From: a virus
Length of the DNA stretch: 64,000 nt
IMG/VR virus record: IMGVR_UViG_3300040786_000066
Strand: one strand, 5' to 3'
The translations under genes were made by a program, and so were the position numbers. A model generated the notes under the pieces. It did not search any database. It worked only from the letters and a program-made list of their open reading frames with translations, and was not told the origin of the DNA. Positions 1-39,834 of this stretch are shown one piece after another; positions within the stretch are counted from its first letter, which is position 1, and every line of letters starts with the position of its first letter.

Positions 1-266
1 CTTGGGTAGGTCGATCGACTATTCCACAGCTATTCAAGCAGAGAGGGGTATAGGGGATATCAAACCTTTGCTGAAATATTTTATTGCATTATATTACAGA
101 CAGGGAGGGAGTACCTACTATATGTGTATACTCCAATCACTATAGCCAGGCTTGATACCTAGTGCATACCAGGGCAGGGAGGGAGGGTGTATATAAAATA
201 AAGGGCAGCTTCGCCTAGTCTTATTATTTCATTGTACTATAAACATAAACCCTAAACACATACACG

Positions 267-473
267 ATGACACACTTACCTATGATTACTAATGATGAAG
301 CTGTAGAATTGCTAGACTACATAGCAATGAATGATCTAGAGAACGCATATGATGCTGAAAGAGATGCTATCTCAGCAGACATGTACGACAACTGCGATCC
401 TTCGGAATTTTCGGATACTCGAACTATACGAAGACGAGCTTCCTTACTAACTAATAGCCCTTCGGGGCTTTAA
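267..473 (+). CDS. small highly acidic hypothetical protein (first early gene)
   Basis: ORF follows motif copy 1 and has a D/E-rich core. The C-terminus runs into a terminator, so the true stop may be earlier. Confidence 0.55.
   Translation: MTHLPMITNDEAVELLDYIAMNDLENAYDAERDAISADMYDNCDPSEFSDTRTIRRRASLLTNSPSGL
456..469 (+). terminator. hairpin AGCCC-TTCG-GGGCT
   Basis: C(UUCG)G tetraloop stem between a gene and motif copy 2. Confidence 0.65.
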
Positions 474-549
474 GTTTAATCAATAAAAGGGCAGCTTCGG
501 TAAGTCTTATTATGTTTTTGTATTTCTCTAATGAGATACCCAATTTAAA

Positions 550-930
550 ATGAAGATTATTGAACTAAAAGGAGATATATATGATGTGTTATCTGATGGC
601 GTTGCAGGTGAAAACTGCATAGTGTACCATAATGGTACAGCTAATGTATTTAGCAACATGGAAAGAATATACCACTCTCCAAACTTTACAAATTCAGAAG
701 TGTTAGGAGAAATCCGCACACAAGAAGTTGTATCTACAGAGAATTTTGACTCTCGATATGGAGGACAAAACTCTTTAGTATCTTCGGATATGAAGAGGGT
801 GCAGGACTTCTCAAGAACCAAGGTTTTCGATGATATCGTAGGCGATCTTAAAATAGATGCTCTATATATATTTGATAAAGCCTTATTAACAACACATCAT
901 TTTGTAGTGTTGAAAGATGATAAGTTATAA
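550..930 (+). CDS. hypothetical protein
   Basis: Intact 126-aa ORF between motif copy 2 and a terminator. Confidence 0.7.
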   Translation: MKIIELKGDIYDVLSDGVAGENCIVYHNGTANVFSNMERIYHSPNFTNSEVLGEIRTQEVVSTENFDSRYGGQNSLVSSDMKRVQDFSRTKVFDDIVGDLKIDALYIFDKALLTTHHFVVLKDDKL

Positions 931-935
931 TACCA

Positions 936-960
936 AAGCCTCTGCATATTGTGGAGGCTT
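936..960 (+). terminator. intrinsic terminator-like hairpin
   Basis: AAGCCTCTGC/GTGGAGGCTT 10-bp stem directly after the stop codon. Confidence 0.65.
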
Positions 961-979
961 AATTTTAAAACAAACTGAT

Positions 980-1362
980 ATGAAAACTACAATGCTATGG
1001 TGTTCCGCACACCAACCAACTCAAGAACAAATTAACGAGCTTGAGGAAAAGGAAGATTAATTCTTCTAAAAGAGCACTCTCCAAAGATGATGGAGAGGAT
1101 ATCTAACTGTCCAAACAATAGACAGGAGATTAAAGAACTCATCTCTGATTTCAGAGATGTATTAGAAAGCTTCGATGCTTGTACTATTGTACAATTGGGA
1201 GGAAGCCCATTGTTCTTATTCATGGCAGGATCATTCATCCAAGGGGCGATGAATAAAGGGAATATACTATTCTCTCATAGCGAGAGAGTGAGCATAGACA
1301 CGCCTCAGCCTGATGGTTCTGTGGTTAAGACGAGTGTATTCAAACACTTGGGCTTTATATAA
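980..1362 (+). CDS. Csx20-like putative cyclic oligoadenylate ring nuclease (one apparent indel near 1050)
   Basis: Reconstructed MKTTMLWCSAHQPTQEQI...SNCP...IVQLGG...SHSERVSIDTPQPDGSVVKTSVFKHLGF matches the Csx20 pattern I recall (SH.LT.EQ, SNIP, LIQG, RVS.E..DG.V.K.S.FKH..F). Confidence 0.65.
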
Positions 1363-1365
1363 TCA

Positions 1366-1381
1366 TATCCCTTCGGGGATA
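1366..1381 (+). terminator. hairpin ATCCC-TTCG-GGGAT
   Basis: UUCG tetraloop stem between a stop codon and motif copy 3. Confidence 0.65.
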
Positions 1382-1455
1382 ATGGTTCTCAAAAGGGCAG
1401 CTTCGGCTAGTCTTATAATGTCTTTGTACTTGTCTAATCAGGTACCAACATAATT

Positions 1456-1617
1456 ATGATTATCAAGATATTTCTTAGTGTTATTGCAGTGTTATTCATT
1501 GCAATATCGTACGAACTTCACCAAATAGGTGATGTCAATCTGTACGCGTGGTACGGATTCGGAGGACTGATGGTTGTTTTAAGAACTATCAGAGCTGTTC
1601 AATTATCTAAACTTTAA
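1456..1617 (+). CDS. small membrane protein
   Basis: MIIKIFLSVIAVLFIAISYELHQIGDVNLYAWYGFGGLMVVLRTIRAVQLSKL, two hydrophobic segments (below the ORF-track cutoff). Confidence 0.55.
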   Translation: MIIKIFLSVIAVLFIAISYELHQIGDVNLYAWYGFGGLMVVLRTIRAVQLSKL

Positions 1618-1621
1618 ATAG

Positions 1622-1804
1622 ATGAGAGCATTGAACATTATCAGAGGAATTTCGAAGGCTTTGATGTTTGTAGTTTTGTACTTTATCTTGTACAATTACA
1701 CTCAAGGTCTTCAAACCATGGCTATTGGATTCTGCCTAGCCATGGTATTACTAATCAGCATCGTGCTGGTTATCAATTATTATGAAATAAATAAAGAGTT
1801 ATGA
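1622..1804 (+). CDS. small membrane protein
   Basis: 60-aa ORF with two hydrophobic helices, overlapping the next ATG. Confidence 0.6.
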   Translation: MRALNIIRGISKALMFVVLYFILYNYTQGLQTMAIGFCLAMVLLISIVLVINYYEINKEL

Positions 1805-2103
1805 AAAATGTATTGAGATTTATCGGCGTGATAGCTATAATAGTATCACTAAGTAATGTCATCGTATTGGCATTAAAAGGGTATAATGAAAACATTGTAC
1901 TCATTGGAGCATCTGTATTTATCACAGTAGTGGGATTTGTACTCCTTATTGCTGCTGATAATATGCAGATTAGGTTAACAGATAAGCAAATAGCAGATGC
2001 TATTACTAGCTTAGAGAGGCAAAGTCTTAGAGATAAGATGGCTCATTGGGGAGATGAACTCAATGAAGAAGAGATTGAGCGTCTATCTAGAGGAAGGTAT
2101 TAA
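1801..2103 (+). CDS. membrane protein
   Basis: Two N-terminal hydrophobic helices and a charged C-terminus. Confidence 0.65.
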   Translation: MKNVLRFIGVIAIIVSLSNVIVLALKGYNENIVLIGASVFITVVGFVLLIAADNMQIRLTDKQIADAITSLERQSLRDKMAHWGDELNEEEIERLSRGRY

Positions 2104-2548
2104 TCAAATGGTCGGGGATATTCCTCGGCCATTATTTATTAACAAATTAAATCAAGAAGTTATGTGGAGAACAGAATCAAAATTGGCATTAGTTGCAATA
2201 GCACTAATTGTCTTAGGAGGCATATATGGTATGTCAAACAAGAGTAACAATAGAAAGGCAGATGCCATCGCTGTACTCATGGAGAATGGAGAAGTTGATA
2301 GTTACAATAATGTATTGTTCTATACTGCCAATGATGAGCAGATGGATCAAAGAACATTGAGTGCATTGTCCTATCTATCAAGAGGATATGATATGGTTCA
2401 GGTATACAATAAGATGTCTGACTACAATGACAAAGAGTTATGGTCTGCTAATAAGCCAAGTTGGGATACAGTATACCAAACACCTAAGGAGAAGTATATC
2501 AGTATGCTTATAACAGAGAATGCGGCTGGAGGTATCAAGGAAGATTAG
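2054..2548 (+). CDS. membrane-anchored hypothetical protein
   Basis: Single hydrophobic helix (LALVAIALIVLGGIYG). The true start is probably downstream (2107 or 2161). Confidence 0.6.
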   Translation: MNSMKKRLSVYLEEGINQMVGDIPRPLFINKLNQEVMWRTESKLALVAIALIVLGGIYGMSNKSNNRKADAIAVLMENGEVDSYNNVLFYTANDEQMDQRTLSALSYLSRGYDMVQVYNKMSDYNDKELWSANKPSWDTVYQTPKEKYISMLITENAAGGIKED

Positions 2549-2555
2549 AAAAGAT

Positions 2556-2575
2556 GGTTGGGCTTCGGCTCAATC
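2556..2575 (+). terminator. hairpin GGTTGGGC-TTCG-GCTCAATC
   Basis: UUCG stem followed by a T-run, before motif copy 4. Confidence 0.65.
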
Positions 2576-2646
2576 ACCTCTTTTAAAAGGGCAGCTTCGT
2601 GTAGGCTTATCATGTGTTCATGCAACTGTGCATTAAACTTATAATT

Positions 2647-2925
2647 ATGGAAGAGTCTACAAAGAAAATTTTCAAACCAAAGTTCGAATTGGTTCAAGAA
2701 TGTAATGGCCTTGTTTCAATACATTTGGGTAAGCACGCTGCTGCGGCTATACTTCAAGGGACAGAAATCACTGGAACCACCCAGGAAGATCATCAAATGT
2801 TGGTGGTGTGTCGTACAATTCTTAGAGACATTGCCCTTAACGCATTGGGAGTTAGGCCTGAAGAATTGTGCCAGGACAAAGCAAGGAATCTTTTATATAA
2901 TCTATCAGATAGCCTACGTGGTTAA
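2647..2925 (+). CDS. hypothetical protein
   Basis: ORF between motif copy 4 and a terminator; start taken at MEESTKK. Confidence 0.6.
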   Translation: MEESTKKIFKPKFELVQECNGLVSIHLGKHAAAAILQGTEITGTTQEDHQMLVVCRTILRDIALNALGVRPEELCQDKARNLLYNLSDSLRG

Positions 2926-2932
2926 TATTCAA

Positions 2933-2950
2933 ACCTCTCTTCGGAGAGGT
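2933..2950 (+). terminator. hairpin ACCTCTC-TTCG-GAGAGGT
   Basis: Perfect 7-bp UUCG stem before motif copy 5. Confidence 0.65.
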
Positions 2951-3164
2951 ATGTTTATCTCAAGGAAAAGGGCAGCGTCGTTCTGTCTTATCAATTCCTC
3001 GTACTATATCTAAGTAGTACGCAAAACATATAACATGGAAAATACTATTGACTTAAGAAAGACAGGCGCTGAGAACATTATTGGTAAATTCAGTAAAAAC
3101 ATTCTTCTCAACATATTATACCTGTACGTGAGAACGGTTCGTTCATCGTGGAGCAAATATCTAC

Positions 3165-3416
3165 ATGACTGCTCGTCAAGCTGAAACTATTCTCATGCTA
3201 TCTGATTTCTTGGAAAAACGCCCAAGTGGTGATTCTAAGCATTGTGAGGATAGAGAATCAGAGGCTAATGTCATGCGTGAAAACACTGTGTTCGAACTTG
3301 CAATGCTTGTTCGTACTATGGCTAAAGGCGTTGCAGGTGTACCTTCTATGATTTCCATTAAGGACATGTCTATTGGCTACGGCCATGTATGTGATGAGCA
3401 TAATGGCAGATACTAA
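3165..3416 (+). CDS. hypothetical protein
   Basis: 83-aa ORF followed by hairpin AGCCTCTC/GAGGGGCT (3426-3447). Confidence 0.55.
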   Translation: MTARQAETILMLSDFLEKRPSGDSKHCEDRESEANVMRENTVFELAMLVRTMAKGVAGVPSMISIKDMSIGYGHVCDEHNGRY

Positions 3417-3450
3417 AGTATCAAAAGCCTCTCTTGATTGAGGGGCTATA

Positions 3451-3681
3451 CTATATCAGCGTAGAGAATATTTGATATAGTAGCAACAATGCAGGGGTAA
3501 ATGCACACGAGTATATCAGAACAGCGATATACTTGGGCGTGATTGCTGTGGTGCTTAGGCATCGGCGCTGGGTGAAGCCTGCACGTGAGAATTTAGTTTA
3601 TTGTATAGCCCGAGGTAGAAATACCTGTGACAGCATTGACTACAATAAGTGGATTCTCCAAACAACTACGATAAGGTTGTT
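3451..3681 (+). ncRNA. candidate structured RNA (unassigned)
   Basis: Nested helices CGAGTATATC/GATATACTTG, GCAGG/CCTGC, GAGAAT/ATTCTC, TTATTGTA/TACAATAA and AGGTA-GAAA-TACCT. Confidence 0.45.
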
Positions 3682-3720
3682 TAATAAAAGGGCAGCTTCG
3701 TTCGGTCTTATCAATTCTTC

Positions 3721-4265
3721 ATGAGCACACAAATTATAACTATCAGCGAAGATGTTATGAATACTGTAATCAAACCTATTTCCCTTTTCTTGAACGATAT
3801 CGAGAAGAATACTATCTTCACTCATAACCCTGCTAATGCTAAAGGCGTTAGTAATTATGACATCGTTGATAAAAGCTACCTGTCTTCTTCTACACATCAT
3901 CGAAAGGTGGTACGTATAAGTTTACTGCGTATGACTTGCGTAACTTTTCTCATAAAGGAGTACCGTTCAAGGACTCTTTTCAAGTAGAGAACGGCAAAGT
4001 TATACATGTAGCTGAAACGTTCACCATCACTAAGAAGAGCACGGCTCTACTTGTGGACGACGAGAAGGTATATCCACCGTTCTGTTATAAGAACTATGCG
4101 GAATACGCTGTCATGAAAGCCGCTCAACCAATAGGGACTTACCCTACTGCTGAGATGTTGACTTTCTTGAAAGAGGACGGAGTAAAGGAAGCAGACGTTG
4201 AAAAGTACTATCGTACTATCGACACTGACAAACCTTTATTCTTCTATAAGGCTAACGGCAAATAG
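3721..4265 (+). CDS. hypothetical protein (indel-split), paralog of 4629-5230
   Basis: Joined from ORFs 3721-3987 and 3936-4265; contains YPPFCY. Confidence 0.55.
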
Positions 4266-4359
4266 AAACGGGTTTGATTACGCATACGCATATCGCATAC
4301 AAATAACATCTTCGCGGATGTAGACCTCGAATAATAGTAAGGGTCTATATTATTGAACT

Positions 4360-4390
4360 AAGCACTCTCTTAATTGGGAGTGCTTTTTTT
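4360..4390 (+). terminator. intrinsic terminator
   Basis: AAGCACTCTC/GGGAGTGCTT stem followed by a long T-run. Confidence 0.8.
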
Positions 4391-4628
4391 ACGTCTATGT
4401 ATTGCAATAACTAACCGACTGTACTCTGCAATAGCTGACCTGACCGCAATGGCTACGGACAATATTGAGACTCTACTACCCCAAGGGCAGCTTCGTCCTG
4501 ACAAAGAAAAGGGCAGCTTCGTCTTGTCCAAATATTTCTTTGTCGCTCCCGCGTGTGGGATTGATACAACGGCTTCCCTGAGGATGTTTGTTGTCACTTA
4601 TAACACGAAATATAAAACCTATATTACA

Positions 4629-6708: not shown

Positions 6709-6791
6709 GGGTAAGTACTCTAGAAAAGGCGTTATTGTTTGTCGCGGTATACAGTCGGCATACAAGATGGGTTCGATTCCCTACCTATCCA
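6709..6791 (+). ncRNA. tRNA-like RNA with Ala-type acceptor (G3:U70, A73)
   Basis: GGGTAAG/CCTATCC acceptor (one mismatch), TTCGATT T-loop, and a long hairpin instead of an anticodon arm. Confidence 0.45.
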
Positions 6792-6792
6792 C

Positions 6793-7062
6793 AAGATTGT
6801 TCATTGACGTATTATGAGTTTTGCAAGACGGGAGTTCGACTCTCCCAACTCCACAAATCGAAGACCGTGTATGTTGTCGATGGTGTAGCTAGCCGATATA
6901 CAAATAGCCGAACTTATGGGGTTGCCTGGTTTTGATTGCAATACACAAGTTTTACTGAGAATAGTCCCAACTATAACTCCAAAAGTTATACAACTTTTAG
7001 TGCAGCTGATTTAGAATTAGCAGCCTAGACGAAACTTGGGGAGCGTCAATCCCCTTATTTTT
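6793..7062 (+). ncRNA. ssrA: circularly permuted (two-piece) tmRNA
   Basis: Acceptor piece first (GACGGGAG-TTCGACT-CTCCC-AACTCC-A, 6827-6853), then a spacer, then the 5' piece GGGGTTGCCTGGTTTTGA at 6918 (G3:U70). P2 TTGCAA/TTGCAA. Tag frame ends ...FSAADLELAA-TAG (7028). Inter-piece pairing TTGACG(6804-09)/CGTCAA(7044-49). Confidence 0.88.
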
Positions 7063-7459: not shown

Positions 7460-8770
7460 AATAACGGCTTGAGCGAAACGTGGGCCGTGGTTCAAAGAAT
7501 ATACAACACTAGTCCTGGAATTCCTGGCAAGCCTATGAAGATAGGAACTTGGTAGAGGATAGAGGCACGTAATCCTTCATATTGCATCGGTACAAATAAA
7601 CAAAACCGAGCCGCACAACACCGTGATTCTTTTAGATAACGGAATATGATTGACTACAACCGGAGCACGGATTCAAACTAACTGTACTGTGTCGAACAGG
7701 ATGAAATCGATTGATGCTAGCCGTAAGGCAACTAACATCTTGTTGCATTTAAAAGGGACAAGAAATGATAGGGATTCTGCAGGATCCAGCTATTGAATAA
7801 GGGTAAGAATAATATCCCCTTAGAACCTCGCTGACACCAGCCAAGTCAGGAGAACAAATCGGGTGGCATCCCTCTAAGCATAAGGAGAACAACAATGCGC
7901 ATTAGCATAAGGTGTACAACAATGCAAGTACTGTCGGCCAGCCATGTCAGCTTGGACCCAAAGTTGGAGTTGATAACTTTGCCGGCAAGTACTTTAACCA
8001 TGCTGAAAAGCAATTGCAAGGAGACTATTAGGTACGTCTTCCCAGAGTAACGTGTGCCAACACCCTGGGTATCTTAGGTCAAGGATGCAATACTTTTCAT
8101 AAAGTCTATAATCTGCGATAACAGAATGAATACATCAACCGCGCAACAAGGCGAGTTTAGTTTTTAGTATGTGAGCGGTAGACACAACTACACACAACAA
8201 ACAAAGATTGCTACTTAAGCTAGTTTATGAACAGCGACTCTGACTCGGGCATCTAATGTACCGGCTAACCTTACAGAGAAAAGGTGTAATCCCTTGCCAG
8301 TATGATTTTAGGCAAATGCAAACTTCGTCAATGTTCCTTAGCGTTCGGGTATTAAGTATAAGATAGCATAAGCCTAAAAGTTGTTGGCATTAGGGCATCA
8401 AGGGATTGATGTGATGAGCTGTAACGGAACTCAGCAGGCAGGTTCGATTCCTGTTAGCCTCACTATTTTAACAACATCCAACGCTCAAAGGAATTAAGAG
8501 GGCAGGCGTTATAGTGACCCGCCGAGAATGAATGGTCACTGAATTTCTAAGTAGTAATGGTCATCTTAAGATACCTGAGTAGAGTGAGTAGTAAGAGTGG
8601 TGCCTATATGGTATTTCTGAAATGAACGTAGTAGCTCAAAAGGCAGATGGACTCAATAGAGAAGATTATTATTGAATTTGCGTGTTCGTTCAGTCCAGTT
8701 TGCATAGCAGGATCGCGCACGTTAAAACTAAGGTAGGAGCAGTCATCAAGTATGGTGATTGTCTCCCTTT
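7460..8770 (+). ncRNA. giant structured RNA, GOLLD-like, with an embedded tRNA-like element (~8393-8462)
   Basis: About 1.3 kb with no ORF of 60 aa or more on either strand. Many helices, e.g. AAGTACTGTCGGC/GCCGGCAAGTACTT, AAAGTT/AACTTT, CCCAG/CTGGG, AGTGACC/GGTCACT, TGGACT/AGTCCA. Ends in a terminator-like hairpin. The class assignment is from recall only. Confidence 0.55.
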
Positions 8771-19710: not shown

Positions 19711-19806
19711 CGGGAAACCACAAGATCAAGCTAGCCTATAAACGGGGATGCGTGGGAGGATGATAAATAAACACTGTCTGATAAGGGTTCGAATCCCTTT
19801 TCCCGT
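19711..19806 (+). ncRNA. degenerate tRNA-like RNA
   Basis: CGGGAAA/TTTCCCG acceptor and AAGGG-TTCGAAT-CCCTT T-arm; no canonical D or anticodon arm. Confidence 0.5.
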
Positions 19807-20339
19807 TATTTTAACAACTAAATATATGGCACAAGAAAAGAACGTTGCCTGCATTTGTCCTAGTATTATGATCTACAACGAGTGGGTCAGAGAAAACGCA
19901 GTAAAGGAGAGCAATATATCTGGGTCTATAATGAAGACAAAATCAGAGGACTACGCTTCCATAGACTAGTTAAGTTATTTAAATATTGGACAATAAAAGA
20001 TATAGATAGAATATTGAGGTTTATTATAATAGACCCTCAAGATGTCGAGATTCAATAGTAATCTCATATAATTTAATAAGAACAATATGAAAGCGTATCA
20101 AATAAACATCGCCCCTAGAACTGGAGTCGGTATGGGATTTGTGACTGTTGGAGAAAACGAGAACCACGCTCTTGCAGAGTTCTCAAAGTCTCTTAGGGAT
20201 TCCATCAAGATAATCAACGCCAAAATAGCGTGCGGACCTGAATGTAATATATCAATACACGAAAGCCAAAAGAGCGCAATGTAGAGATCCTTAGAACACT
20301 TAGAAAACCAGGTAGGCTTGCTTTCCAAAAAACGACTTC

Positions 20340-22428: not shown

Positions 22429-23936
22429 AATAATTATGGAAGTAAAGCTAATTAAAGTAGAAGGCTGTGTAGTCGGCTGGTCTATGGAAGGAGAAAACCT
22501 TGAAGAAATGAAAAACTAGGGGCTATCAGAGACATCCAATTCTTTGGTTTTGAAGATACAGAAATAGTGTACGCAGGTAGAAAAGGCGGTGACTATGTAA
22601 CAGATCCTGGAGTGTTGTCTTGGAAACAAAAAAAGCACGACACTAGCTCCCCAAAAAAATAATGAAAAGCTAGAAGCTACAATAACAGTAGATAACTTAG
22701 TGTCGACCATGAAAACATCAATGCCATCAGAGAAGATCCTAAGAGAACGAATGAAATATTTCGTGCTGCAGGATTTTAGAGGGTATATTGTATACTAGGG
22801 AGGCTAGTACCAGGCAAACAACTTGTCTTTAAAAATATCACTTATGTGGAGATTGGATGGATAGGCCAGAAAAGAATAAAGACCAGAGAACAAACCTACA
22901 TGGAGCTGATGGTAGAAATGATGGAAGAATTCATCAAAGAACTCACTTAATAAATTGACTTATGGAAAAAGAAGTAAATGTTAGAACATACACATACGCT
23001 CAACTAGACTGTAAATATGATGCACTATGTTTAAAAGATAAAAATACAGTGCTTAGAGGAGCTTTAGAATACATGCAGCAGTACAACGGTAGGACTATAA
23101 AACATGCATTTTCATGGCTATGGGCTATGAGGATTGCGTAGGGAAGGAGAATACATAAAAGTAATAGACCATGGGTAACATACAAGAACTGGAAAACAGC
23201 TGGCTGAGGCAAAAGCTGAAGAAAAGAGAAAAGAGCTTCAAACCTTGACAGAAAACCTCATCTCTAAATACCAAGGAAAGCTTACGGGAGTCACAGTTTC
23301 GAAAGAAAAACAGATCAGCGTACGCTTCAGCTGTGTTTTATGAAAAGTTCTGGGTTACAGGCAATACGATAACAGTATTGAAATGGAACATATCCTTTTG
23401 CAGAGCAGGAAGAAATTACAAATTCTCAAGTGATAAGCTGTCTTTGACAGAAACAAAACTGAGGTATCCTCACAGGAGAACGGCTATAGTTTTGAGCACA
23501 ATTTAATAAGTTCAGGCGCCTATGGTAGGGACAAAGAAATGTCCGTAAACAAATTCATGCAACTTTGGGAGTACGGATATTTTGTGGTACAAGAACTAGA
23601 CAACGTATACACAAAACTGTGGGACAGCCGTGGGACTTGACTAGAATGGGCACAGCAACCGATGAACTAAAGTTAGATATAGCTATAAAAGCCACTGGTA
23701 TTGATGTTATAGATATAACAGAAGACTACAAGGTATTCAACGTACTCAAGTATTGTCAGTTACCGTTCTTTCAAGAACAGAAGTATCTGCCTAGAATATT
23801 CGCAGTAAAAATACTCGAATATCAGATATCCAAAATGAAGGAGGATATGGCACATCCATTCTCTACACGCACAGAACACACACGTGGAGAAATTAAAATT
23901 CTAGAAGATTTTATAAAACAATTTAACTCTTACATC

Positions 23937-24842
23937 ATGCAAGTAAAAACGATAAAGAAAATAATCAGTAAAAAAATGATCGACTGGTTAGAAACTATTC
24001 CCAACGAAAAGTTGAGATCTGACGTCAAGAAAAATATCCTCGTATCAGGAGGTTGTATCACATCATTGTTTCAAGGATTACCAGTTAACGACTACGACGT
24101 ATACATTCAGGACATGGATGTTCTGATCAGACTGGCTCAGCATTATTACCCAGGAACAACTACCACAGGTGTTGATAAAGTGCTTGACGGAAGAAAACGT
24201 GAGGACTATCTTAACAATATACAGAGCTCTTTTGAAATTGACGATAACGAATCTGAAGAAGCAGTTCGCTACAAAACACTTAAACTAGATCAAGTCAAAT
24301 TGAACATAAGTTCGATAGGAATGAAAAAAGAGCTGATTGAAGGTAAAAAATACCAGGTTGCTTTCTTTTCCCAAAATGCTATCTCCCTTACAGAAGATTT
24401 GCAGATTGTATTAAGATTCAGTGGTAACGTTACTCAAATTCACAAAACTTTCGATTTCGTGCATGCCACTAACTATTTCACCTTTGAGGAAGGATTAGTT
24501 ACAAACGTAGCAGCACTAGAAAGCATATTGACAAAGTCTTTGAGATACCAGGGATCCTTATATCCTCTTACCTCTGTAATACGTATGAAGAAATTCATAC
24601 AACGTGGTTGGACCGTAAACGCGGGAGAAATCCTTAAGATGTTGTTCCAAGTGTCTGAGTTAGACCTAAAAAACATAGAGGTGCTAGAAGAGCAGCTTAT
24701 AGGAGTTGACGTAGCTTATTTTTCGCTACTGATAACAGTGCTAAGAGATACTGAAGGAAAGCTTACCGCTCATCATTTATCTGAATTGATAGACAAGGTA
24801 TTCAATGAATACGAAGAGCCGGTTGACGAAGAAGTTAAATAA
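23937..24842 (+). CDS. phage nucleotidyltransferase (Pol-beta superfamily, poly(A) polymerase/CCA-enzyme-like head)
   Basis: ILVSGGCITSL...NDYDVY and FDFVHATNYF...R..KF..RGW motifs. The ORF track starts at 23565; the likely start is MQVKT. Confidence 0.75.
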   Translation: MQVKTIKKIISKKMIDWLETIPNEKLRSDVKKNILVSGGCITSLFQGLPVNDYDVYIQDMDVLIRLAQHYYPGTTTTGVDKVLDGRKREDYLNNIQSSFEIDDNESEEAVRYKTLKLDQVKLNISSIGMKKELIEGKKYQVAFFSQNAISLTEDLQIVLRFSGNVTQIHKTFDFVHATNYFTFEEGLVTNVAALESILTKSLRYQGSLYPLTSVIRMKKFIQRGWTVNAGEILKMLFQVSELDLKNIEVLEEQLIGVDVAYFSLLITVLRDTEGKLTAHHLSELIDKVFNEYEEPVDEEVK

Positions 24843-31489: not shown

Positions 31490-31713
31490 AGGTGGTAAAT
31501 ATCCGCTAGTACAAACAAATTCACATAAGTAACCGGTTAAACTGAGGCCCCTTGAGGGATAGTGTAAGACTGTAGACAAGCCTCTGTGAAAGCAAGCTTC
31601 TTTAGTTATCGGATTAAACTTTTGATACGGGTCATGCAGCCCCGATACAAGACTGGAAGAAACCAGAGCTATTAAAAATTTATTTGATAAGTTCCCTCAC
31701 ATGAGGGCTTTGG

Positions 31714-31893
31714 GAGGTGATGTAACTGGCAGGCATGCCTGCGGTAATGCAGCAGGTGGTAAGGGCAATAATGAAAGTCATCAGGAATCAGGCCTGATTT
31801 TTAAGGTGATGGACAAGAATGACCCAAAAGTGAAAGCGGCAATTGTACATTACCCGTGAAAGCTCCGTGCAGGTTCGAGTCCTGCTCACCCCA
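31714..31893 (+). ncRNA. expanded tRNA-like RNA (180 nt)
   Basis: GAGGTGA/TCACCCC acceptor, GCAGG-TTCGAGT-CCTGC T-arm, A73, and internal helix GGTAATG/CATTACC. Confidence 0.7.
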
Positions 31894-32151
31894 CAAACTA
31901 CACATTGAAAAACAAACACAGTTATGATACATTAAACAGCAAGAGAAGTAGGGGCACTGAAAATTTTGTGATATAGGCATCATAATGCACTATCAAGATA
32001 ACCGGAAGCATAGATGAGGAAGGTTAAGTGCCAGGTTTGTTGAGTAAGATAAGCTCTTGTTACGTTGCTCCGAGTAGGACAGTACGTACTTGAAGGACTA
32101 AGTGAACCTTGTAGAGTAATATCCCTATCTTGAAGGATGGGTGGTTTATAA

Positions 32152-32351
32152 GGCCGGATGGCGTAGAGGCATACGCTAAGGTTATAGGCCTAGAATGGAT
32201 TATCAAAAGCCTATCTGTAAGACAAGTCAGGTAAATAAGCGGCAAGATAGGATAGTCCAGCAAGTTCTGTGAAAATAATAACTATTATCCCTGTAAAGGT
32301 GCTGACTAACACAGAATATAATTCATGCAGGTTCGAATCCTGCTCCGGCCA
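32152..32351 (+). tRNA. tRNA-like gene with a ~130-nt structured variable-region domain (identity uncertain)
   Basis: GGCCGGA/TCCGGCC acceptor, class II-like D arm GCG-TAGAGGCATA-CGC, weak anticodon arm (loop TTATAGG), T-arm GCAGG-TTCGAAT-CCTGC and A73. Confidence 0.75.
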
Positions 32352-32383
32352 CAAACAGTATTTTAATTAAACAACTAACAACC

Positions 32384-33271
32384 ATGCTTGAGATAAAAAA
32401 TCAAAAGACCAAAACCACGGCATGTAGAGAAAACGGCAGAAGCGCAGACTTTACAAGCGGTAATTTCATCTTAGGCTGCTCCCACAAAAAAGGAGATACT
32501 TATGATAATCCCTGCTCTTATTGCTATGTAGCAAGATTCGGCAGACAAAAATTGTACGTCAATACTAACACAGATGAGTTGTTGGCAGAGTGCGACAAAG
32601 CCATACAAGACCTGCCTTCCCTAGAGTACCTAACCAAGTAGATGAGAAATACTACTACGTTGACATCTCTTGTGATACAGATATTAATCTGCATTGGAAC
32701 GACTATGATTGATTTATGTGTTTGATTATTTCAAGAAGCATCCCAAGCTAGCAGCTACTTTTGCTACAAAATGGGTGAATACAAAACTGCTGGACTATGT
32801 TCCTGAAAACAAAATCAGAGTAAGAATGAGCTTGATGCCTGAGAAAATGAGAGCTATACTTGAAAACGGTACCAGTCCTATAATAAAAGAGTTCAGTTCC
32901 TGGAGAAGCTTTTCCAAGCAGGATACTCTACGCACATCAATTTCAGTCCAATTATTTACCACGACAAAAAACTGAGCGGGTACAAAGAACTCTTCAACAT
33001 CATTAACAACGAAGTATCAGAGGAGTTTAAAAACAAGCCGGTCTCGAATGTATTTTCCTTACTCACAATGCTAATCTTCACAAAATAAATTTGGAAAAGG
33101 CCTTTAAAGCAAGAAGAAATACTTTGGACACTAGAGAACCAAGAACAGAAAATCAGTCAGTATGGAGGCTCAAACCTGCGGTACAATCAACGTGTAAAGC
33201 CAGCTTTAATTAGAGCTTTTACAAAGTCGGTAAACCAAGACCTCAACATACCTATTAGGTATATATTTTAA
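32384..33271 (+). CDS. spore photoproduct lyase-like radical SAM protein (indel-split)
   Basis: GC...CSYCY, FATKWVN, IRVRMSLMP and E.GTSPI motifs. Confidence 0.75.
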
Positions 33272-33461: not shown

Positions 33462-36040
33462 AAAAGAATTGTTAAAAATAAATACACGTGTTGCAAAAGT
33501 CGAATGCAAGGCAAACTTAGAAGGAGTAATTACCCTCGACAGCAGCAGGTGCCTTGTGGATCCCTGGACAAGCGCAACACGTTTATTTTATAAATTACCC
33601 TGAATTTATTTACTAACCTATACATCTAACCAAAATGAAAAAATTATGCGCGTCTTTTGCTGTACTTATCCTAGTTAGCTCTTTAACTTATTCTGTAGTT
33701 TACCTATTAAGCCAGAATCCAAATGCTTTAGAGTGGGAAGCAAATATCCAAAACATATCGATTGCTATTGTTGTCAACATTACCCTTTTGTATCCTTATG
33801 GATGTTTGAACAAAATGGTTTGCAATCACTGAAAGAATTAAAGCAAAGCCAATAAAAAAAGATTTTAATGTTTTATTGACAAGATTCGAGGAGAAGAATA
33901 CATGAACGGTAATATAATAAAAACGCAGCTACAAAATTAACAATGGAAAAAAGCTATAATTTCAAAATGCAAATGGGGTGGTGTTCAGTTCTTAGCTGGG
34001 CAGCTACTCTATCTCTAGCTTTAAAGCCCCAGAGAAAATAGATGATTGGATGGTAATTCCATTCGGGGCAATAGTATTTACGATTATCCACTTCAAGATG
34101 AGTATGCTTATCTCAGAATACAAAGATAAATCAAAAAACTAGTCATGGTAGTTACAGGACCACGAACACTAGCAGATTACTTAGCCGTGCAGAAAACGAT
34201 AACAGGTATTCTAGACAGTCGTTACTGCACTTGCCAGATGAAAAAGACTTGAACGTAAAGCTCAACAGAGTTAAAGAAAAATAAAAAACCTCGGCAATGG
34301 AGATATATAAAAAAGTGGAATATATCCACAAAGATAAAGCGCAAAAAATATATAAGGATATAGCAGAAAAGCAGTTTATTATGGCTTTTTCAAGGAAATG
34401 CCCTTAGATAAATTAAAAAAGCTGATAAGCTTCAAAGAAACAGATCCAGACAAAGAAGAAGAGTGGAAAAACAAAGATCAGGTAGAGATGCTGTGCCATC
34501 TCAGAGACACAAACAGTCTGCTGCTCTGTCATTTAGAAATAGGCCCTAAGCCTGTTGATGACACCTTCACTCTAAATTTCGCAGAGTGGTTGCGAAAAGA
34601 GTCTTACGATGTTGGAGACAAGTGGTATTACCAGCAAGACAATGAATTATACACCTCGGCTGGAATGCTTTCCATTTACAGGGCAGTATTATCTGTTGAT
34701 AAAACAAAAATTAGCCATGGATCTTAATAGATTCTCTGTAAATTTTATTTGTATGTTTACACAAATAATGTGGTTTTACGTAATGGGGCTTACTACTCCG
34801 TTTCAAATAAGAAGCTATGTGACTACCTGTGGAGCAAGAATTGAACTAATGCGTTAATAAATATGAGAACAGAAAACACACACAGAAAGTAATTTTGTTG
34901 GTAATTTGGGATTACTAACAGCCGTATTACTTGCATTAAGCTGGTTTCACTTTGCCTGGCAATACCTGGGCATAACAACCGGTATCCCAAAAAACATAAC
35001 TAACAATTTTAGCTCAAGTTGGGAAGCTTATAGTTATTTTTCTCCAGAGACTACGGTACAGGAGGATTAATTTATATCACGCTATTTGGTTACTATTGGT
35101 GGCTTACTAGTAAAGCTTTCTTGTACATACTGAAAAAGCAAAAAAGAGACAGTAAAAAAAGTAAATATTATGGACACAATTAGAATAAAATGTAACGTAG
35201 CAAAATTACTAGTTACGGAAACGGTGGAGGTACAAAAGTAACGTTAATGCCTGTTACAGGTAATAGCGAAGAAAACAAACAGTTTTGGAACAATGTACCT
35301 ACTGGAAAGATAGTTCTGCACGTAGATGCTGAACCGTGTGGTTTTGAAAAGGAGAGTACTATGTAGACTTTACTAAGCTATAATGTACACTTTAATTATT
35401 GAGAAGAAAGACATACTGGCCCCAGGTACCGTTATATTAAGCGGTAATTTCAAATTGGTCAAGAAAATAGAAGATTTAAACGAGTTTTGGGCAGTGTTAA
35501 AAACACAAAATCGTTTTATGCAAGGCATAGAATGTACCCCACCTCCTTCTTTTCTTGGACATTAAGAACAATAGACGCCTGGATAAAGGCCGGTTACTTC
35601 TGGACTGTTGCACCTTGCGGGAAACCAAAGCGCGAATTTCCAGTTAAATAAATAGCCCTTAACTTACCGAGATGATAAAAAAACTAAATTAACGAAGTTT
35701 TATGTATTCTGTGGAACTTGGTAAGTAAAGTAAGCTTGCTGCTGTTTTCGGTTGAAGCCTGAGAATCAGCGAGGACGATGGACAGGCAACCGTCAAAACT
35801 CGGAGTCCTCATTACGGTAGCGAAACGGCTCTGGGCACGAAATCCAGGGCCGTTTTATATTTAATACAATTGTAAAATAATTCAGGTCATGATGCAAAAC
35901 ATGTACATTGCTTATATGAGAGGTTTTGAAAACAAACCTAAGCCTAAATATATCAAAGGAAGCCTTGTCGAAAAAGAGTACGATAAAGGCAAAAAAGACA
36001 GAGTAAATAAATTACCTAACAGGTATTTAAAGTCTTAAAT

Positions 36041-36179
36041 GGAGGCATAGCTGTTAAGATTGCATTCTAACACAGTAAGTGGGTCGCCGATGAGCTGATA
36101 TTACTGCACAACATGCGCGCTAAAGATGTAAGTGATCAGTTATGTACGCGGCAAGGAGGTTCGATTCCTCCTGTCTCTA
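36041..36179 (+). ncRNA. expanded tRNA-like RNA (139 nt)
   Basis: GGAGGCA/TGTCTCT acceptor, GGAGG-TTCGATT-CCTCC T-arm, A73, and two long hairpins replacing the D and anticodon arms. Confidence 0.72.
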
Positions 36180-38121: not shown

Positions 38122-38371
38122 ATGGAAAGTACAAACAAAACCCATCCTTAGGAGAAACAAGAGTAAGAGTCGATTTTAATGTTGCAAACAGTTCTGATGT
38201 AACTAAAGTTAAAATTGAATCTGCAAAAGCATAGACTTCATGCAATCTTTAAGAGTAAATAAAGATGGAGTATCAGCAAGCTCTGAAAAGCAACGTCTAA
38301 TATCAATGGCTCAAACAGCTTATGAGGAAGCAGGAATGTGGGCTGTTAAAGCAATAACTGAAGGTATATAG
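38122..38371 (+). CDS. Acb2/Tad1-hairpin-like small protein (indel-split)
   Basis: Reconstructed SLGETRVRVDFN...QRLISMAQTAYEEAGMWAVKAIT. Confidence 0.55.
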
Positions 38372-38373
38372 TT

Positions 38374-39541
38374 ATGGCGCACACAGACAAAACATATAAA
38401 ACCCTCTGTACCAAAATAAACACAGAGGGCAGGTTATATGAAGACAAGAGCAGAAATGTATCTCGTATTCAAATTACGAGTCACACACTGAGACACAACT
38501 TCAGCAATGGTTTTCCGGCTTTATCAGCAAAACAACTCCCTTACAAGTTTGTAAAGGAGAACTGATATGGTTCCTTAGAGGAGACACACATATCAAGTAC
38601 TTGTTAGATAACGGAATTCTATATGGAACAAAGATGCCTACAACCTTTATGTCAAAGTAACTTCAGCAAATCTTGACTCTGATGCAAATCATATGTACAG
38701 AAAAACTTAGATGGAAGCTTCAGTATGTTCAGCATGGAAGAATTCATTCATATAGTAATGCTGCACCCAATTGAAGTTTTGCATGAAGCATTCTCTTACG
38801 AAAGGTATACCATGGGAGATGTAGGTAGAAACTACTCTGCGCAATGGAGAAGCTATAAAGGAGAAGCTATTGCCTATAACTCTGATAATAACAGTTTCAT
38901 TTATGAAAGACATGATCAAATTAAAGAACTGATTGCAGACATGCGCGAAAACATCATGAGTACCAGATTAAAAGTTGCCTCATGGAATCCAAGCGAAATA
39001 AACAAAACAGCGCTTCCTCCATGTCACGACAATTTCCAAGTCATAGGAGTTCCTTTGTTCGATAATGAAATGATCGCTCTAGCCGGAAAGAACGGAGCAA
39101 ATATTTCAAAGCAAATGAAACGCGAAGAGTTAATAAAATGGGTATTCCAGAGTACGGATTTGAAGTGCATTGGGGACAAAGAAGCACAGATACGTTTCTT
39201 GGTTTCCCATTCAACATAGCTTCTTACGCTACACTAGCTAAGATACTTGAAGAAATTACTTTGTTTGTAGCCTTAGGAGTCGAAGGTAATCTAAAATGCG
39301 TTCATTTCTATGACAACCAATTTGAAGCAGTAGAGACCCTATTAAAAGAGATACTGATGTGCACGAAGACTGCACACTGGAGGTTTCTCAAGAATTCAAA
39401 GACCTGTGTCAATTGTTTAGAGAAAATCAAATCACCCTAGACGTATTATTTAATCTAATGAGTATCGATATGTTTAAGCTTAGCGGATACACTTCCGATA
39501 AAGCTATAAGTGTAGAAATGCTTGCACCAATAAAAATATAA
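38374..39541 (+). CDS. thyA: thymidylate synthase (indel-split)
   Basis: GELIWFL.G, G..Y..QWR, ALPPCH, QRSTD.FLGFPFNIASY and HFYDNQ motifs. Confidence 0.93.
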
Positions 39542-39834
39542 AAAATGCCAAGTCCTAAAGACAAGCTGTTATCTGTCATAAGATAGCAGCTTTAAGCTAT
39601 TTATTAGCCGAAGCTCTAGATGAGCTAAATCCAGAAGTTGCAGACTCTAATCCATTCAAAAGCAATGTGATGCCATGGCTGATAAGTGCAATGAAATTGT
39701 CAGTGATGTCTTTGGAGTACAAGAAATAGCCTCCTCTACATATCTTCAAAACATGAGTACTCAAGTGGATACTGCGATAAGAAGAAATTATGTTAGAATT
39801 CCAGGCAGTGAGTAATAACCCTTAAAAAAGACCG

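What the first reader, a model, noticed from the sequence alone, without database searches (positions are those of the whole stretch)
32152..32351. tRNA with a ~130-nt pseudoknotted domain grafted into the variable arm
The acceptor, D arm and T arm are intact. The variable region is closed by a 9-bp helix (ATGGATTAT 32195-203/ATAATTCAT 32318-26) and branches into two 7-bp stems (CCTATCT/AGATAGG; TTCTGTG/CACAGAA). Their loops are complementary (AGTCAG 32225-30/CTGACT 32302-07), predicting a kissing-loop pseudoknot. Normal long variable arms are about 10-25 nt. The anticodon arm is weak (loop TTATAGG). I know of no described tRNA with this architecture. It could be a recoding or ribosome-modulating tRNA, a nuclease-resistant tRNA, or a tRNA-aptamer fusion.
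Basis: seen in the sequence. Interest (0 to 1): 0.88.

Follow-up and report, generated by a model that had tools for sequence, protein, structure and literature searches.

The report
Phage tRNA-Leu mimic locking its anticodon
This is a real, conserved phage RNA gene shaped like a leucine tRNA. Its variable arm has grown into a 130-base knotted domain that base-pairs with the RNA's own anticodon loop, so it almost certainly does not read codons. I found no description of it, and its job is unknown.

Summary
The element at 32152-32351 is real. Using motifs from the insert, I found 25 distinct relatives in viral and metagenomic contigs and one Flavobacterium prophage.

On that alignment my structure is 94.8% paired (shuffled 70.3%), and 45 of 58 pairs show compensatory changes.

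Its 5' strand closes hairpin A instead, and the true base of the arm is a 3-bp GAA/UUC helix, the same as in a host tRNA-Leu.

Two further tertiary helices appeared. In one of them the 'anticodon' (positions 35-37, often 34) pairs in cis with a codon-like triplet inside the insert, using all four Watson-Crick pair types.

The chassis is tRNA-Leu-like, but the loop triplets are AUA, AAC, AUC, AGC, AUG and AUU. One member has a truncated arm and one lacks the T arm. Two complete carrier phages have no ordinary tRNA.

No Rfam family matches and I found no paper. It is most likely a non-decoding tRNA-derived structured RNA of unknown function.

Earlier notes of this scan flagged the same element and a wider class of phage tRNA-Leu-like scaffolds on other DNA.

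The window itself carries single-base deletion errors.

The parts
32152..32158 (+). Acceptor stem, 5' strand (GGCCGGA)
   Evidence: Pairs with 32344-32350. All 7 pairs show compensatory changes in 25 homologs and are 97% paired.
32161..32176 (+). D arm with a 3-bp stem. In most relatives it is the Leu-type GGCGGAAuuGGUAGACGC; in this window it is more diverged.
   Evidence: The D stem is 100% paired. In a host genome, the family model's next-best hits after the element are tRNA-Leu(UAA) and tRNA-Leu(CAA).
32178..32192 (+). Anticodon-like hairpin: weak 4-bp stem (32178-81/32189-92, with an A x A mismatch at the top) and 7-nt loop UUAUAGG (32182-88)
   Evidence: Only the two inner pairs are solid and covary (CG16 GC6; GC10 AU4 GU4). 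The outer pairs are mostly non-canonical, so the stem as a whole is 70.7% paired.
32184..32187 (+). PK3, 5' side: tRNA positions 34-37 (A U A G) of the 'anticodon' loop
   Evidence: Pairs with 32282-85. Column counts are CG13 GC6 AU2 UA2; UA14 AU5 GC2 GU1; GC24. Permutation p = 1.5e-5 for the best single pair. The two varying pairs jointly were never matched in 200,000 shuffles. This helix was not part of the model used to build the alignment.
32193..32195 (+). Variable-arm closing helix, 5' strand (GAA)
   Evidence: Pairs with 32322-24 (UUC). 94.5% paired, and all 3 pairs change on both sides. It matches the base of the variable arm of host tRNA-Leu(UAA), GAAC...GUUC-G-U.
32196..32259 (+). 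Hairpin A: outer helix 32196-202/32253-59, internal loop (one A missing after 32204), inner helix 32210-16/32245-51, and a 28-nt loop with the conserved GUAAGACAAG-PK1-GUAAAUA
   Evidence: Outer helix 98.7% paired and inner helix 96.2% paired; 11 of 13 pairs have compensatory changes. The missing A is shown.
32225..32230 (+). PK1, 5' side (AGUCAG) in the loop of hairpin A
   Evidence: Pairs with 32302-07. 100% paired in 25 sequences. Variants include AGUCUA/UAGACU, AGUCGG/CCGACU, AGUUGC/GCAACU and AGCGGU/GCCGCU.
32235..32237 (+). PK2, 5' side (AUA) in the loop of hairpin A
   Evidence: Pairs with 32286-88 (UAU). The middle pair is UA in 19 sequences and CG in 5. The close relatives L102 and L107 differ by exactly this double change.
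32265..32316 (+). Hairpin B: outer helix 32265-71/32310-16; 5' internal loop GAAAAUAAUAAC + PK3 partner + PK2 partner; inner helix B2 32290-92/32297-99 capped by GUAA; 3' internal loop GUG-PK1-UAAC
   Evidence: Outer helix 97.1% paired, with 5 of 7 pairs compensatory. B2 second pair is UA13 CG10 GC2. B2 varies from a tetraloop-capped 3 bp to a ~40-nt extension.
32282..32288 (+). Codon-like strand C-UAU (PK3 partner, 32282-85), directly followed by UAU (PK2 partner, 32286-88)
   Evidence: See PK2 and PK3. The two short helices sit end to end on one strand.
32302..32307 (+). PK1, 3' side (CUGACU) in the 3' internal loop of hairpin B
   Evidence: helix 9.
32322..32324 (+). Variable-arm closing helix, 3' strand (UUC)
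   Evidence: helix 5.
32327..32343 (+). T arm (GCAGG UUCGAAU CCUGC)
   Evidence: 99.2% paired, with 4 of 5 pairs compensatory. It is the only part the Rfam tRNA model aligns well.
32344..32351 (+). Acceptor stem 3' strand plus discriminator A. No encoded CCA; followed by CAAAC.
   Evidence: Among the 14 first-set members that reach the 3' end, the discriminator is A in 9, U in 3 and C in 2 (read off).

Best explanation
This is a non-decoding structured RNA derived from a phage tRNA-Leu.

Shown:
- The upper half is a class II, Leu-type tRNA: acceptor, D arm, T arm, and the GAA/UUC base of the variable arm.
- The loop of the variable arm has been replaced by about 125 nt that form two hairpins.
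- The two hairpins are tied to each other by two loop-loop helices, PK1 (6 bp) and PK2 (3 bp).
- The internal loop of hairpin B also pairs with positions 35-37 (often 34-37) of the former anticodon loop (PK3).
- The lower half of the molecule is therefore a cross-linked three-helix bundle in which the 'anticodon' is occupied.

Inferred:
- The RNA is cut out of its co-directional transcript by RNase P and 3' trimming, and receives CCA, because the tRNA top half is intact.
- It cannot pair with mRNA on the ribosome.
- The conserved business end is the knotted domain, with about 35 nearly invariant unpaired nucleotides. It probably binds a host factor or small ligand that is common to many hosts.
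- The tRNA part serves as a maturation and stability handle and possibly as a docking surface.
For: - Family and structure: 25 distinct homologs. The full model is 94.8% paired against 70.3% in shuffles, 45 of 58 pairs have changes on both sides, and the covariation score is 0.623 against 0.173. Sliding the partners by 1-3 columns gives 0.09 or less.
- PK1 covaries. PK2 and PK3 were found by an all-against-all column scan and confirmed on the larger set. They were not in the covariance model, so the alignment was not fitted to them.
- Leu origin: the family model picks host tRNA-Leu(UAA) and tRNA-Leu(CAA) as its next-best hits. The base of the arm is the same as in host tRNA-Leu.
- Against decoding: the loop triplets are AUA, AAC, AUC, AGC, AUG and AUU on a Leu chassis. 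L088 has a 6-nt loop, L107 and L194 have 8-nt loops, L124 has a truncated arm, and L190 has no T arm.
- The domain is the constrained part. A related strain's contig has 0 differences over 32209-32327 but 10 in 198 nt of the neighbouring gene (records 16 and 17). The loop blocks are nearly invariant across otherwise unrelated phages.
- Carriers share almost no genes. Two complete carrier genomes have no ordinary tRNA. The partner is therefore more likely a host factor than a phage protein.
Against: - No expression, end-mapping or binding data exist.
- Retention of Leu-type D-loop features and an A discriminator in most members may mean that charging by LeuRS matters, which would move the function to the acceptor end (rival 1).
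- A 3-4-bp PK3 could open, so the lock may be conditional.
- No ligand or protein candidate was identified, and no known aptamer or ribozyme matches.
Confidence: 0.55

Rival explanations
1. It is a chargeable or decoy tRNA-Leu mimic whose working part is the acceptor end and elbow. It would be leucylated, or bound by enzymes that act on tRNA ends or elbows: LeuRS, the CCA-adding enzyme, or nucleotidyltransferase or pyrophosphokinase toxins of defence systems. On this view the knotted domain exists mainly to keep it off the ribosome and to protect the anticodon region from nucleases.
For: - The Leu-type D arm, U8/A14, the GG in the D loop and the canonical T loop are kept in most members. The discriminator is A in 9 of the 14 first-set members that reach the 3' end.
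- Two complete phages with no other tRNA still keep it.
- The window phage and the Flavobacterium prophage encode a putative tRNA nucleotidyltransferase.
- From my own knowledge, bacterial LeuRS needs neither the anticodon nor the variable arm.
Against: - The discriminator is U or C in 5 of those 14 members.
- The L190 type lacks the T arm altogether, and several members have non-canonical 8-9-nt T loops.
- The most conserved nucleotides are in the domain, more than a passive lock would need.
- The nucleotidyltransferase is present in only 1 of 5 carrier records.
Confidence: 0.25
2. It acts on the ribosome. Either the lock opens under some condition and the RNA decodes NNU codons as leucine, or the built-in codon-anticodon duplex lets it enter an A site without mRNA, as tmRNA-SmpB or the PKI domain of dicistrovirus IRESs do.
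For: - In 7 of the first 15 members the cis strand is an exact codon for loop positions 34-36, for example UAU:AUA in the window and GCU:AGC, CAU:AUG, GAU:AUC and AAU:AUU in relatives, plus a G37-C pair.
- PKI of IGR IRESs is a precedent for a cis codon-anticodon mimic (PMC3517527, abstract seen).
- The window and L102 also carry permuted tmRNA-like genes.
Against: - The conserved pairs are 35-37, not 34-36. The 34 pair holds in only 11 of 24.
- The loop length is not fixed and one arm is truncated.
- The 'codon' strand is buried between two other helices, which by my inference would clash with the decoding centre.
- There is no tag reading frame, and no tmRNA link in 5 carrier records.
- The Leu chassis carries six different 'anticodons', all starting with A34.
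Confidence: 0.07
3. The insert is an intron or mobile insertion that is removed to give a normal tRNA.
For: ARAGORN -i gives that call. Group I introns do occur in tRNA-Leu anticodon loops (my knowledge).
Against: - The proposed spliced anticodon stem has a G.A mismatch and is not reproducible in homologs (my inspection of the sequences).
- The local hairpin covaries instead.
- The insert sits in the variable arm, is far below group I size, and has no Rfam intron or ribozyme match even at E up to 10.
- The insert co-evolves with the anticodon loop, and the loop never shows a Leu anticodon.
Confidence: 0.03
4. It is a decayed tRNA pseudogene, chance complementarity, or an assembly artefact.
For: The window has about one single-base deletion per 150-200 nt, and default ARAGORN finds no tRNA in it.
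Against: - Independent short-read contigs from four runs carry the same element.
- 25 homologs show compensatory changes.
- The only assembly error inside it is one A in a variable loop.
Confidence: 0.01

Closest known systems
Bacterial class II tRNA-Leu (Rfam RF00005)
   Same: 7-bp acceptor, 3-bp D stem with a GGCGGAAuuGGUAGACGC-type D arm, a GAA/UUC-G-U variable-arm base, a 5-bp T stem with UUCGAAU loop, and no encoded CCA. The family model scores host tRNA-Leu genes next best.
   Different: - The variable-arm loop is about 125 nt instead of about 6.
- The top of the anticodon stem is non-canonical.
- The loop triplet is never a Leu anticodon and is paired in cis.
- The Rfam tRNA model gives only 15.5 bits against a cut-off of 29.
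- Default ARAGORN misses it.
tmRNA (SsrA), including permuted forms (RF00023, RF04321)
   Same: A tRNA-like top half joined to a pseudoknot-rich body. Non-decoding. Also found on phages; the window and L102 carry candidates nearby.
   Different: There is no tag reading frame. A D arm and an anticodon-like arm are present. It is not detected by ARAGORN or Rfam tmRNA models. The pseudoknots are unrelated.
T-box riboswitch stem I pairing with a tRNA anticodon (Specifier codon)
   Same: A structured RNA strand reads an anticodon loop by 3-4 Watson-Crick pairs, and the pair identities co-vary.
   Different: The register is 35-37 (plus or minus 34). There are no T-box sequence motifs and no Rfam match. 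This resembles how a T-box works; it is not a member of that family.
PKI domain of dicistrovirus intergenic IRESs
   Same: A cis-formed mimic of a codon-anticodon duplex (PMC3517527, abstract).
   Different: PKI is a small mimic of an anticodon stem-loop that fits the decoding site, and it is eukaryotic. This RNA keeps a whole tRNA body and buries the duplex between other helices.
Engineered tRNA-scaffold and aptamer-tagged tRNAs (e.g. PMC7590224); T4 'species 1/2' stable RNAs of the tRNA cluster
   Same: A tRNA frame carries a foreign folded module and is matured by tRNA enzymes. I cite the T4 RNAs from my own knowledge.
   Different: This one is natural, conserved and far larger. The module contacts the anticodon loop. 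No sequence relation was tested for the T4 RNAs.
Phage tRNA-Leu-like scaffold RNAs noted earlier in this scan (unpublished AI notes e1-5121199, e1-4035489 and others)
   Same: The same Leu-type chassis with a large insert. Further examples with other inserts lie in this window (31711-31893) and in L097 and L190.
   Different: Those are described as lacking an anticodon arm and carrying variable inserts. This subfamily keeps the arm, has one specific, highly conserved insert placed in the variable arm, and locks the loop.

Membership tests
tRNA (RF00005), class II tRNA-Leu | Cloverleaf top half: 7-bp acceptor, D stem, 5-bp T stem with a T-loop | tested here: met
   Met in 24 of 25 members; L190 lacks the T arm.
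tRNA (RF00005), class II tRNA-Leu | Reaches the curated score of the Rfam tRNA model or is detected by ARAGORN | tested here: not met
   15.5 bits against a cut-off of 29, on the 3' part only. ARAGORN default finds 0 genes.
tRNA (RF00005), class II tRNA-Leu | Leu-type D arm and long variable arm emerging after position 44 | tested here: met
   Host tRNA-Leu genes are the next-best hits of the family model. The aligned base of the arm is GAA/UUC-G-U.
tRNA (RF00005), class II tRNA-Leu | Free 7-nt anticodon loop with a Leu anticodon (NAG or YAA) | tested here: not met
   The triplets are AUA, AAC, AUC, AGC, AUG and AUU. The loop is paired in cis. Loops of 6 or 8 nt and a truncated arm occur.
tRNA (RF00005), class II tRNA-Leu | Aminoacylation by LeuRS and delivery to the ribosome | not testable with these tools
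   Needs acid-gel or periodate assays and in vitro charging.
tmRNA | Tag-peptide reading frame with resume codon, and detection by tmRNA models | tested here: not met
   No ARAGORN or Rfam tmRNA hit on the element. I saw no reading frame conserved between the window and L002 (inspection).
Group I intron in a tRNA-Leu gene | Insertion in the anticodon loop, a P1-P9 core of 200 nt or more, and exons that rebuild a tRNA-Leu | tested here: not met
   The insert is in the variable arm and is about 125 nt. There is no intron-model hit at E up to 10. The exons do not rebuild an anticodon stem in homologs (sequences).
Any Rfam 15 family (ribozymes, riboswitches, phage RNAs) | Match at the gathering score | tested here: not met
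   0 matches in the window. Only ordinary tRNAs in 10 related loci. Nothing on the insert at E up to 10.
T-box riboswitch | Stem I with Specifier loop, T-box sequence and antiterminator, located in a 5' leader | tested here: not met
   No Rfam T-box match. The element is a stand-alone tRNA-like gene between co-directional ORFs.
Phage tRNA-Leu-like scaffold RNAs (earlier notes of this scan) | Leu-type acceptor, D and T chassis carrying a large non-tRNA insert, on phage DNA | tested here: met
   It differs in keeping an anticodon-like arm.

The most novel reading that the evidence does not exclude
The RNA is a leucine-chargeable tRNA that carries its own codon. The built-in codon-anticodon duplex (PK3) either lets it enter a ribosomal A site independently of mRNA, or acts as a releasable lock that frees an A34-N-N anticodon on a signal. 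In the first case it would be a phage-made ribosome-rescue or ribosome-jamming molecule, an RNA-only analogue of tmRNA-SmpB. In the second it would put leucine at chosen NNU codons.
Probability: 0.06. Interest if true: 0.95.

Novelty: new variant of a known kind. Interest (0 to 1): 0.8.

Why it matters
tRNA-derived non-decoding RNAs are few, and each has taught something about how cells and viruses reuse the tRNA shape; examples are tmRNA, viral tRNA-like structures and Y-RNA-like RNAs.

This is a family with a very well-supported architecture. It has a Leu-type tRNA top half and a triple-pseudoknotted 130-nt domain. The feature I know from no natural tRNA is that its own variable arm reads and sequesters its anticodon.

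It is spread among unrelated phages, including complete genomes with no other tRNA, so it must pay its way.

It offers four things:
- a compact new RNA fold for structural work;
- a natural precedent for tRNA-scaffolded RNA modules;
- a possible new layer of phage-host conflict around tRNA enzymes;
- a culturable entry point, a prophage in Flavobacterium sp. HSC-61S13.

It also shows that standard tRNA finders and Rfam miss a whole class of phage tRNA-like genes.

Tried and rejected
- Stop-codon recoding as the cause of the short ORFs. No recoding opens the frames. The cause is single-base deletions in the window.
- BLASTN of the locus against GenBank phages: no match. At E up to 10 only T-arm-sized matches to ordinary tRNAs appear.
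- An exact 25-mer of the T arm plus acceptor in IMG/VR: no match.
- A homolog of the downstream gene (L001, 68% aa) has no element upstream.
- The first 17-mer scan gave mostly chance hits (L003-L012) and one true relative, L002.
- The ARAGORN intron model (tRNA-Val with a 124-nt intron): rejected, as its stem is not kept in homologs.
- Conserved neighbouring genes: none. Only a YqaJ-like exonuclease appears in 3 of 14 loci.
- Genes shared by carriers across four whole phage genomes plus the window: only a protein I read as a DEDD-type exonuclease from its sequence (not run against Pfam), 16-18 kb from the element.
- A link to the putative tRNA nucleotidyltransferase: found in 1 of 5 carrier records.
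- A link to tmRNA: 0 of 5.
- The 255-nt spacer upstream (31895-32149) is not significantly structured (z = -0.18) and is absent in one relative.
- Expression: no RNA run clearly holds the element.
- Literature: three full-text searches found no description.

Full report
**What is in the window**

They fold more stably than all 200 shuffles (z = -4.4). Default ARAGORN finds no tRNA in the whole window. Rfam finds nothing at gathering scores. At E up to 10 only the 3' third aligns weakly to the tRNA model, at 15.5 bits against a cut-off of 29.

**The window is error-prone, but the element is not an artefact**

ORFs in the window are short under every genetic code. A thymidylate synthase gene runs through at least four frames. 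I laid Logan contigs of four public metagenome runs (ice, sediment, marine) on 31600-33100. The window lacks single bases at about one site per 150-200 nt relative to the short-read contigs of what is probably its own sample. These sites are after 31635, 31711, 32067, 32204, 32616, 32710, 32884 and 33028.

One of these, an A after 32204, lies inside the element, in an internal loop whose length varies in relatives. Otherwise the element is reproduced exactly.

Related strains tell the same story. A 151-nt contig covering 32209-32359 differs at only one base, a C-to-U in the T stem that gives U.G. A contig from the same run over the neighbouring gene has 10 differences in 198 nt (records 16 and 17). 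The other listed differences in relatives are one acceptor C-to-U (again U.G) and two D-loop bases.

**Context**

The window is a phage of Bacteroidota type. Its largest ORF is 51% identical to a protein of Tenacibaculum phage Larrie, and its Vibrio-phage homologs are annotated as tRNA nucleotidyltransferase. Genes all run on the + strand.

**Finding relatives**

An exact 17-mer from the insert found one true relative in IMG/VR, L002. Motifs shared by the two then found more in IMG/VR and in JGI and other metagenome contigs. They also found one of 185,579 species-representative genomes, a prophage of Flavobacterium sp. HSC-61S13.

I built a covariance model from 13 members. It scores true members at 99-206 bits. 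I ended with 25 distinct sequences (alignment A5), plus duplicates and fragments.

Only 1 of 151 sampled genomes from the family of that Flavobacterium carries the element. Carriers share almost no genes with one another. Two complete carrier genomes, of 52.7 and 133 kb, have no ordinary tRNA at all.

**Secondary structure**

RNAalifold on the first alignment recovered five helices, with 20 of 31 pairs compensatory:
- the acceptor;
- the D stem;
- a helix closing hairpin A;
- the helix of hairpin B;
- the T arm.

My full model on 25 sequences is 94.8% paired against 70.3% in shuffles. 45 of 58 pairs change on both sides. The covariation score is 0.623 against 0.173, and it drops to 0.09 or less when partners are slid by 1-3 columns.

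The 9-bp closing helix is not: 72.6% paired against 72.8% shuffled, and covariation 0.182 against 0.189. Its 5' strand (32196-202) pairs with 32253-59. For example, A-U becomes U-A or C-G together with that partner, not with the tail. The arm is closed by G32193-A-A with U32322-U-C, which is 94.5% paired with all three pairs compensatory.

**Tertiary helices**

In the more distant ones it changes in step: AGUCUA/UAGACU, AGUCGG/CCGACU, AGUUGC/GCAACU, AGCGGU/GCCGCU. It is 100% paired, with four of six pairs compensatory.
- PK2 came from an all-against-all scan for column pairs that stay Watson-Crick while both sides vary. It is AUA 32235-37 with UAU 32286-88. The middle pair is U-A in 19 sequences and C-G in 5, and two near-identical relatives differ by exactly that double change.
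- PK3 came from the same scan. Loop positions 35, 36 and 37 of the 'anticodon' hairpin, plus position 34 in about half the members, pair with the four nucleotides after the invariant UAAC in hairpin B. In the window these are A32184-U-A-G32187 with C32282-U-A-U32285.

For PK3, the position-36 pair is C-G 13, G-C 6, A-U 2 and U-A 2. The position-35 pair is U-A 14, A-U 5, G-C 2 and G-U 1. The G37-C pair holds in 24 of 25. Permutation gives p = 1.5e-5 for the best single pair. The two pairs jointly were never matched in 200,000 shuffles.

These helices were not in the covariance model, so the alignment could not have been fitted to them. In L124, whose arm is truncated, a shifted CGG/CCG pairing keeps the contact (my inspection).

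PK3 and PK2 sit end to end on one strand. The former anticodon loop and the loop of hairpin A therefore stack on the internal loop of hairpin B.

**Origin of the chassis**

In the Flavobacterium genome, the next-best hits of the family model after the element itself are tRNA-Leu(UAA) at 38.5 bits and tRNA-Leu(CAA) at 28.7 bits. Aligned to them, the family shares three features:
- the D arm;
- the G-U connector before the T stem;
- the variable-arm base. The host has GAAC...GUUC and the family has GAA...UUC.

**Why I think it does not decode**

- The loop triplets on this Leu chassis are AUA, AAC, AUC, AGC, AUG and AUU, always with A34. They co-vary with their cis partner.
- The top of the anticodon stem is mostly non-canonical (U-A-A opposite G-A-G).
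- Loop length is 6 nt in L088, 8 nt in L107 and L194, and L124 has a truncated arm.
- Among the 14 first-set members that reach the 3' end, the discriminator is A in 9, U in 3 and C in 2.
- Several distant members have 8-9-nt T loops.
- The L190 type, identical in three contigs, has no T arm yet keeps all three tertiary helices.

The most conserved nucleotides are unpaired ones in the domain: ACAAG, GUAAA, GAAAAUAUUAAC, GUG and UAAC. That pattern is typical of a folded core that binds something.

I therefore read the knotted domain, including the ex-anticodon loop, as the functional core. I read the tRNA half as a handle for RNase P, 3' trimming and CCA addition, for stability, and perhaps for docking. 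These last points are inference; nothing here measures expression or binding.

**Rivals**

- A chargeable or decoy tRNA-Leu mimic acting through its acceptor end remains plausible (0.25). Leu identity features are kept in most members, and two carriers encode a putative tRNA nucleotidyltransferase. However, that enzyme is in only 1 of 5 carrier records.
- A ribosome-directed role is the most exciting reading, because in 7 of the first 15 members the cis strand is an exact codon for positions 34-36. The precedent is the PKI domain of dicistrovirus IRESs (PMC3517527). The conserved register, the variable loop size and the buried position of the duplex argue against it (0.07).
- Excision as an intron is unlikely (0.03).
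- An artefact is excluded.

**Comparison with what is known**

No Rfam 15 family matches the element or its relatives. Three full-text searches found no description.

The closest known things are class II tRNA-Leu, tmRNA, T-box/anticodon recognition (analogous in how it works, not the same family), IRES PKI, and engineered tRNA scaffolds.

They had also flagged a wider class of phage tRNA-Leu-like scaffolds with other inserts (e1-5121199, e1-4035489 and others). I confirmed that such RNAs lie next to family members here, at window 31711-31893, L097:6346-6499 and L190:509-660.

**Verdict**

The decoding interpretations are disfavoured and the function is unknown. It is a new, well-supported variant among tRNA-derived structured RNAs. 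Interest 0.8.

Noticed in passing
window 31600-33100 and 38200-39800: The window carries single-base deletions relative to short-read contigs of the same sample, after 31635 (GC), 31711, 32067, 32204, 32616, 32710, 32884 and 33028. This frameshifts genes: thymidylate synthase at about 38.3-39.7 kb runs through at least 4 frames, and the radical-SAM-like gene at 32384-32975 through 3. ORF-based reading of this window is unreliable.
   Followed up: yes
window 31711-31893 (+): A second giant tRNA-like gene of about 184 nt after adding the missing G. It has a Leu-like D arm, a 9-nt loop on a CCUGC/GCAGG stem, a ~112-nt insert of different sequence, and T arm GCAGGUUCGAGUCCUGC. The family model scores it 27.9 bits (E = 4e-5). 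In one relative it abuts the studied element directly.
   Followed up: partly
window 31895-32149: The 255-nt spacer between the two giant tRNA-like genes is present in the window and one relative but cleanly absent in another: a contig joins 31894 to 32150. It is not significantly structured (z = -0.18).
   Followed up: partly
window 35959-36179 (+): A possible third giant tRNA-like gene. It has T arm GGAGGUUCGAUUCCUCC at 36155-71 followed by UGUCUCU-A-CAAAC. The model hit is weak (14 bits, E = 0.11) and the 5' end is unclear, perhaps because of deletion errors.
   Followed up: no
window 6204, 6770, 8441, 19786, 31872, 32330, 36158 (+): Seven exact GGUUCRANUCC T-loop motifs, all on the + strand. 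Default ARAGORN reports none as tRNA. With relaxed thresholds it gives tRNA-Thr 6709-6792, an odd tRNA at 8370-8463 and tRNA-Phe 19741-19808. These are probably ordinary tRNAs damaged by the assembly errors.
   Followed up: partly
window 6766-7028 (+); L102:1673-1898 (-): A permuted (two-piece) tmRNA candidate in the window, at 40.1 bits and below the cut-off of 47. There is a clear one at 54.8 bits on the TARA contig L102, upstream of its family member. No tmRNA was found in five other carrier records.
   Followed up: partly
window 23565-24842 (+): A 425-aa ORF whose homologs in Vibrio and Shewanella phages are annotated as tRNA nucleotidyltransferase. A copy 60% identical lies in the Flavobacterium prophage that also carries the element. 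Pfam finds no domain.
   Followed up: partly
window 193-4544: Seven copies of a ~40-nt intergenic repeat with the core AAAAGGGCAGCUUCG...GUCUUAU, spaced 0.3-1.2 kb apart. It is possibly a repeated promoter or terminator element of an early gene block.
   Followed up: no
L097:6346-6953; L190:401-2046: Other phages carry small arrays. In L097 a 154-nt Leu-like giant RNA with a different insert, a weak tRNA and the family member lie within 600 nt. In L190 a normal tRNA-Leu(CAA), a 152-nt Leu-like giant RNA and the T-arm-less family member lie within 1.7 kb.
   Followed up: partly
L190:1870-2046 (= L195, L213): A family member of 177 nt with no T arm at all. The acceptor 3' strand follows the arm's closing helix directly. 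All three tertiary helices are kept, and its record has 24 ordinary tRNAs.
   Followed up: partly
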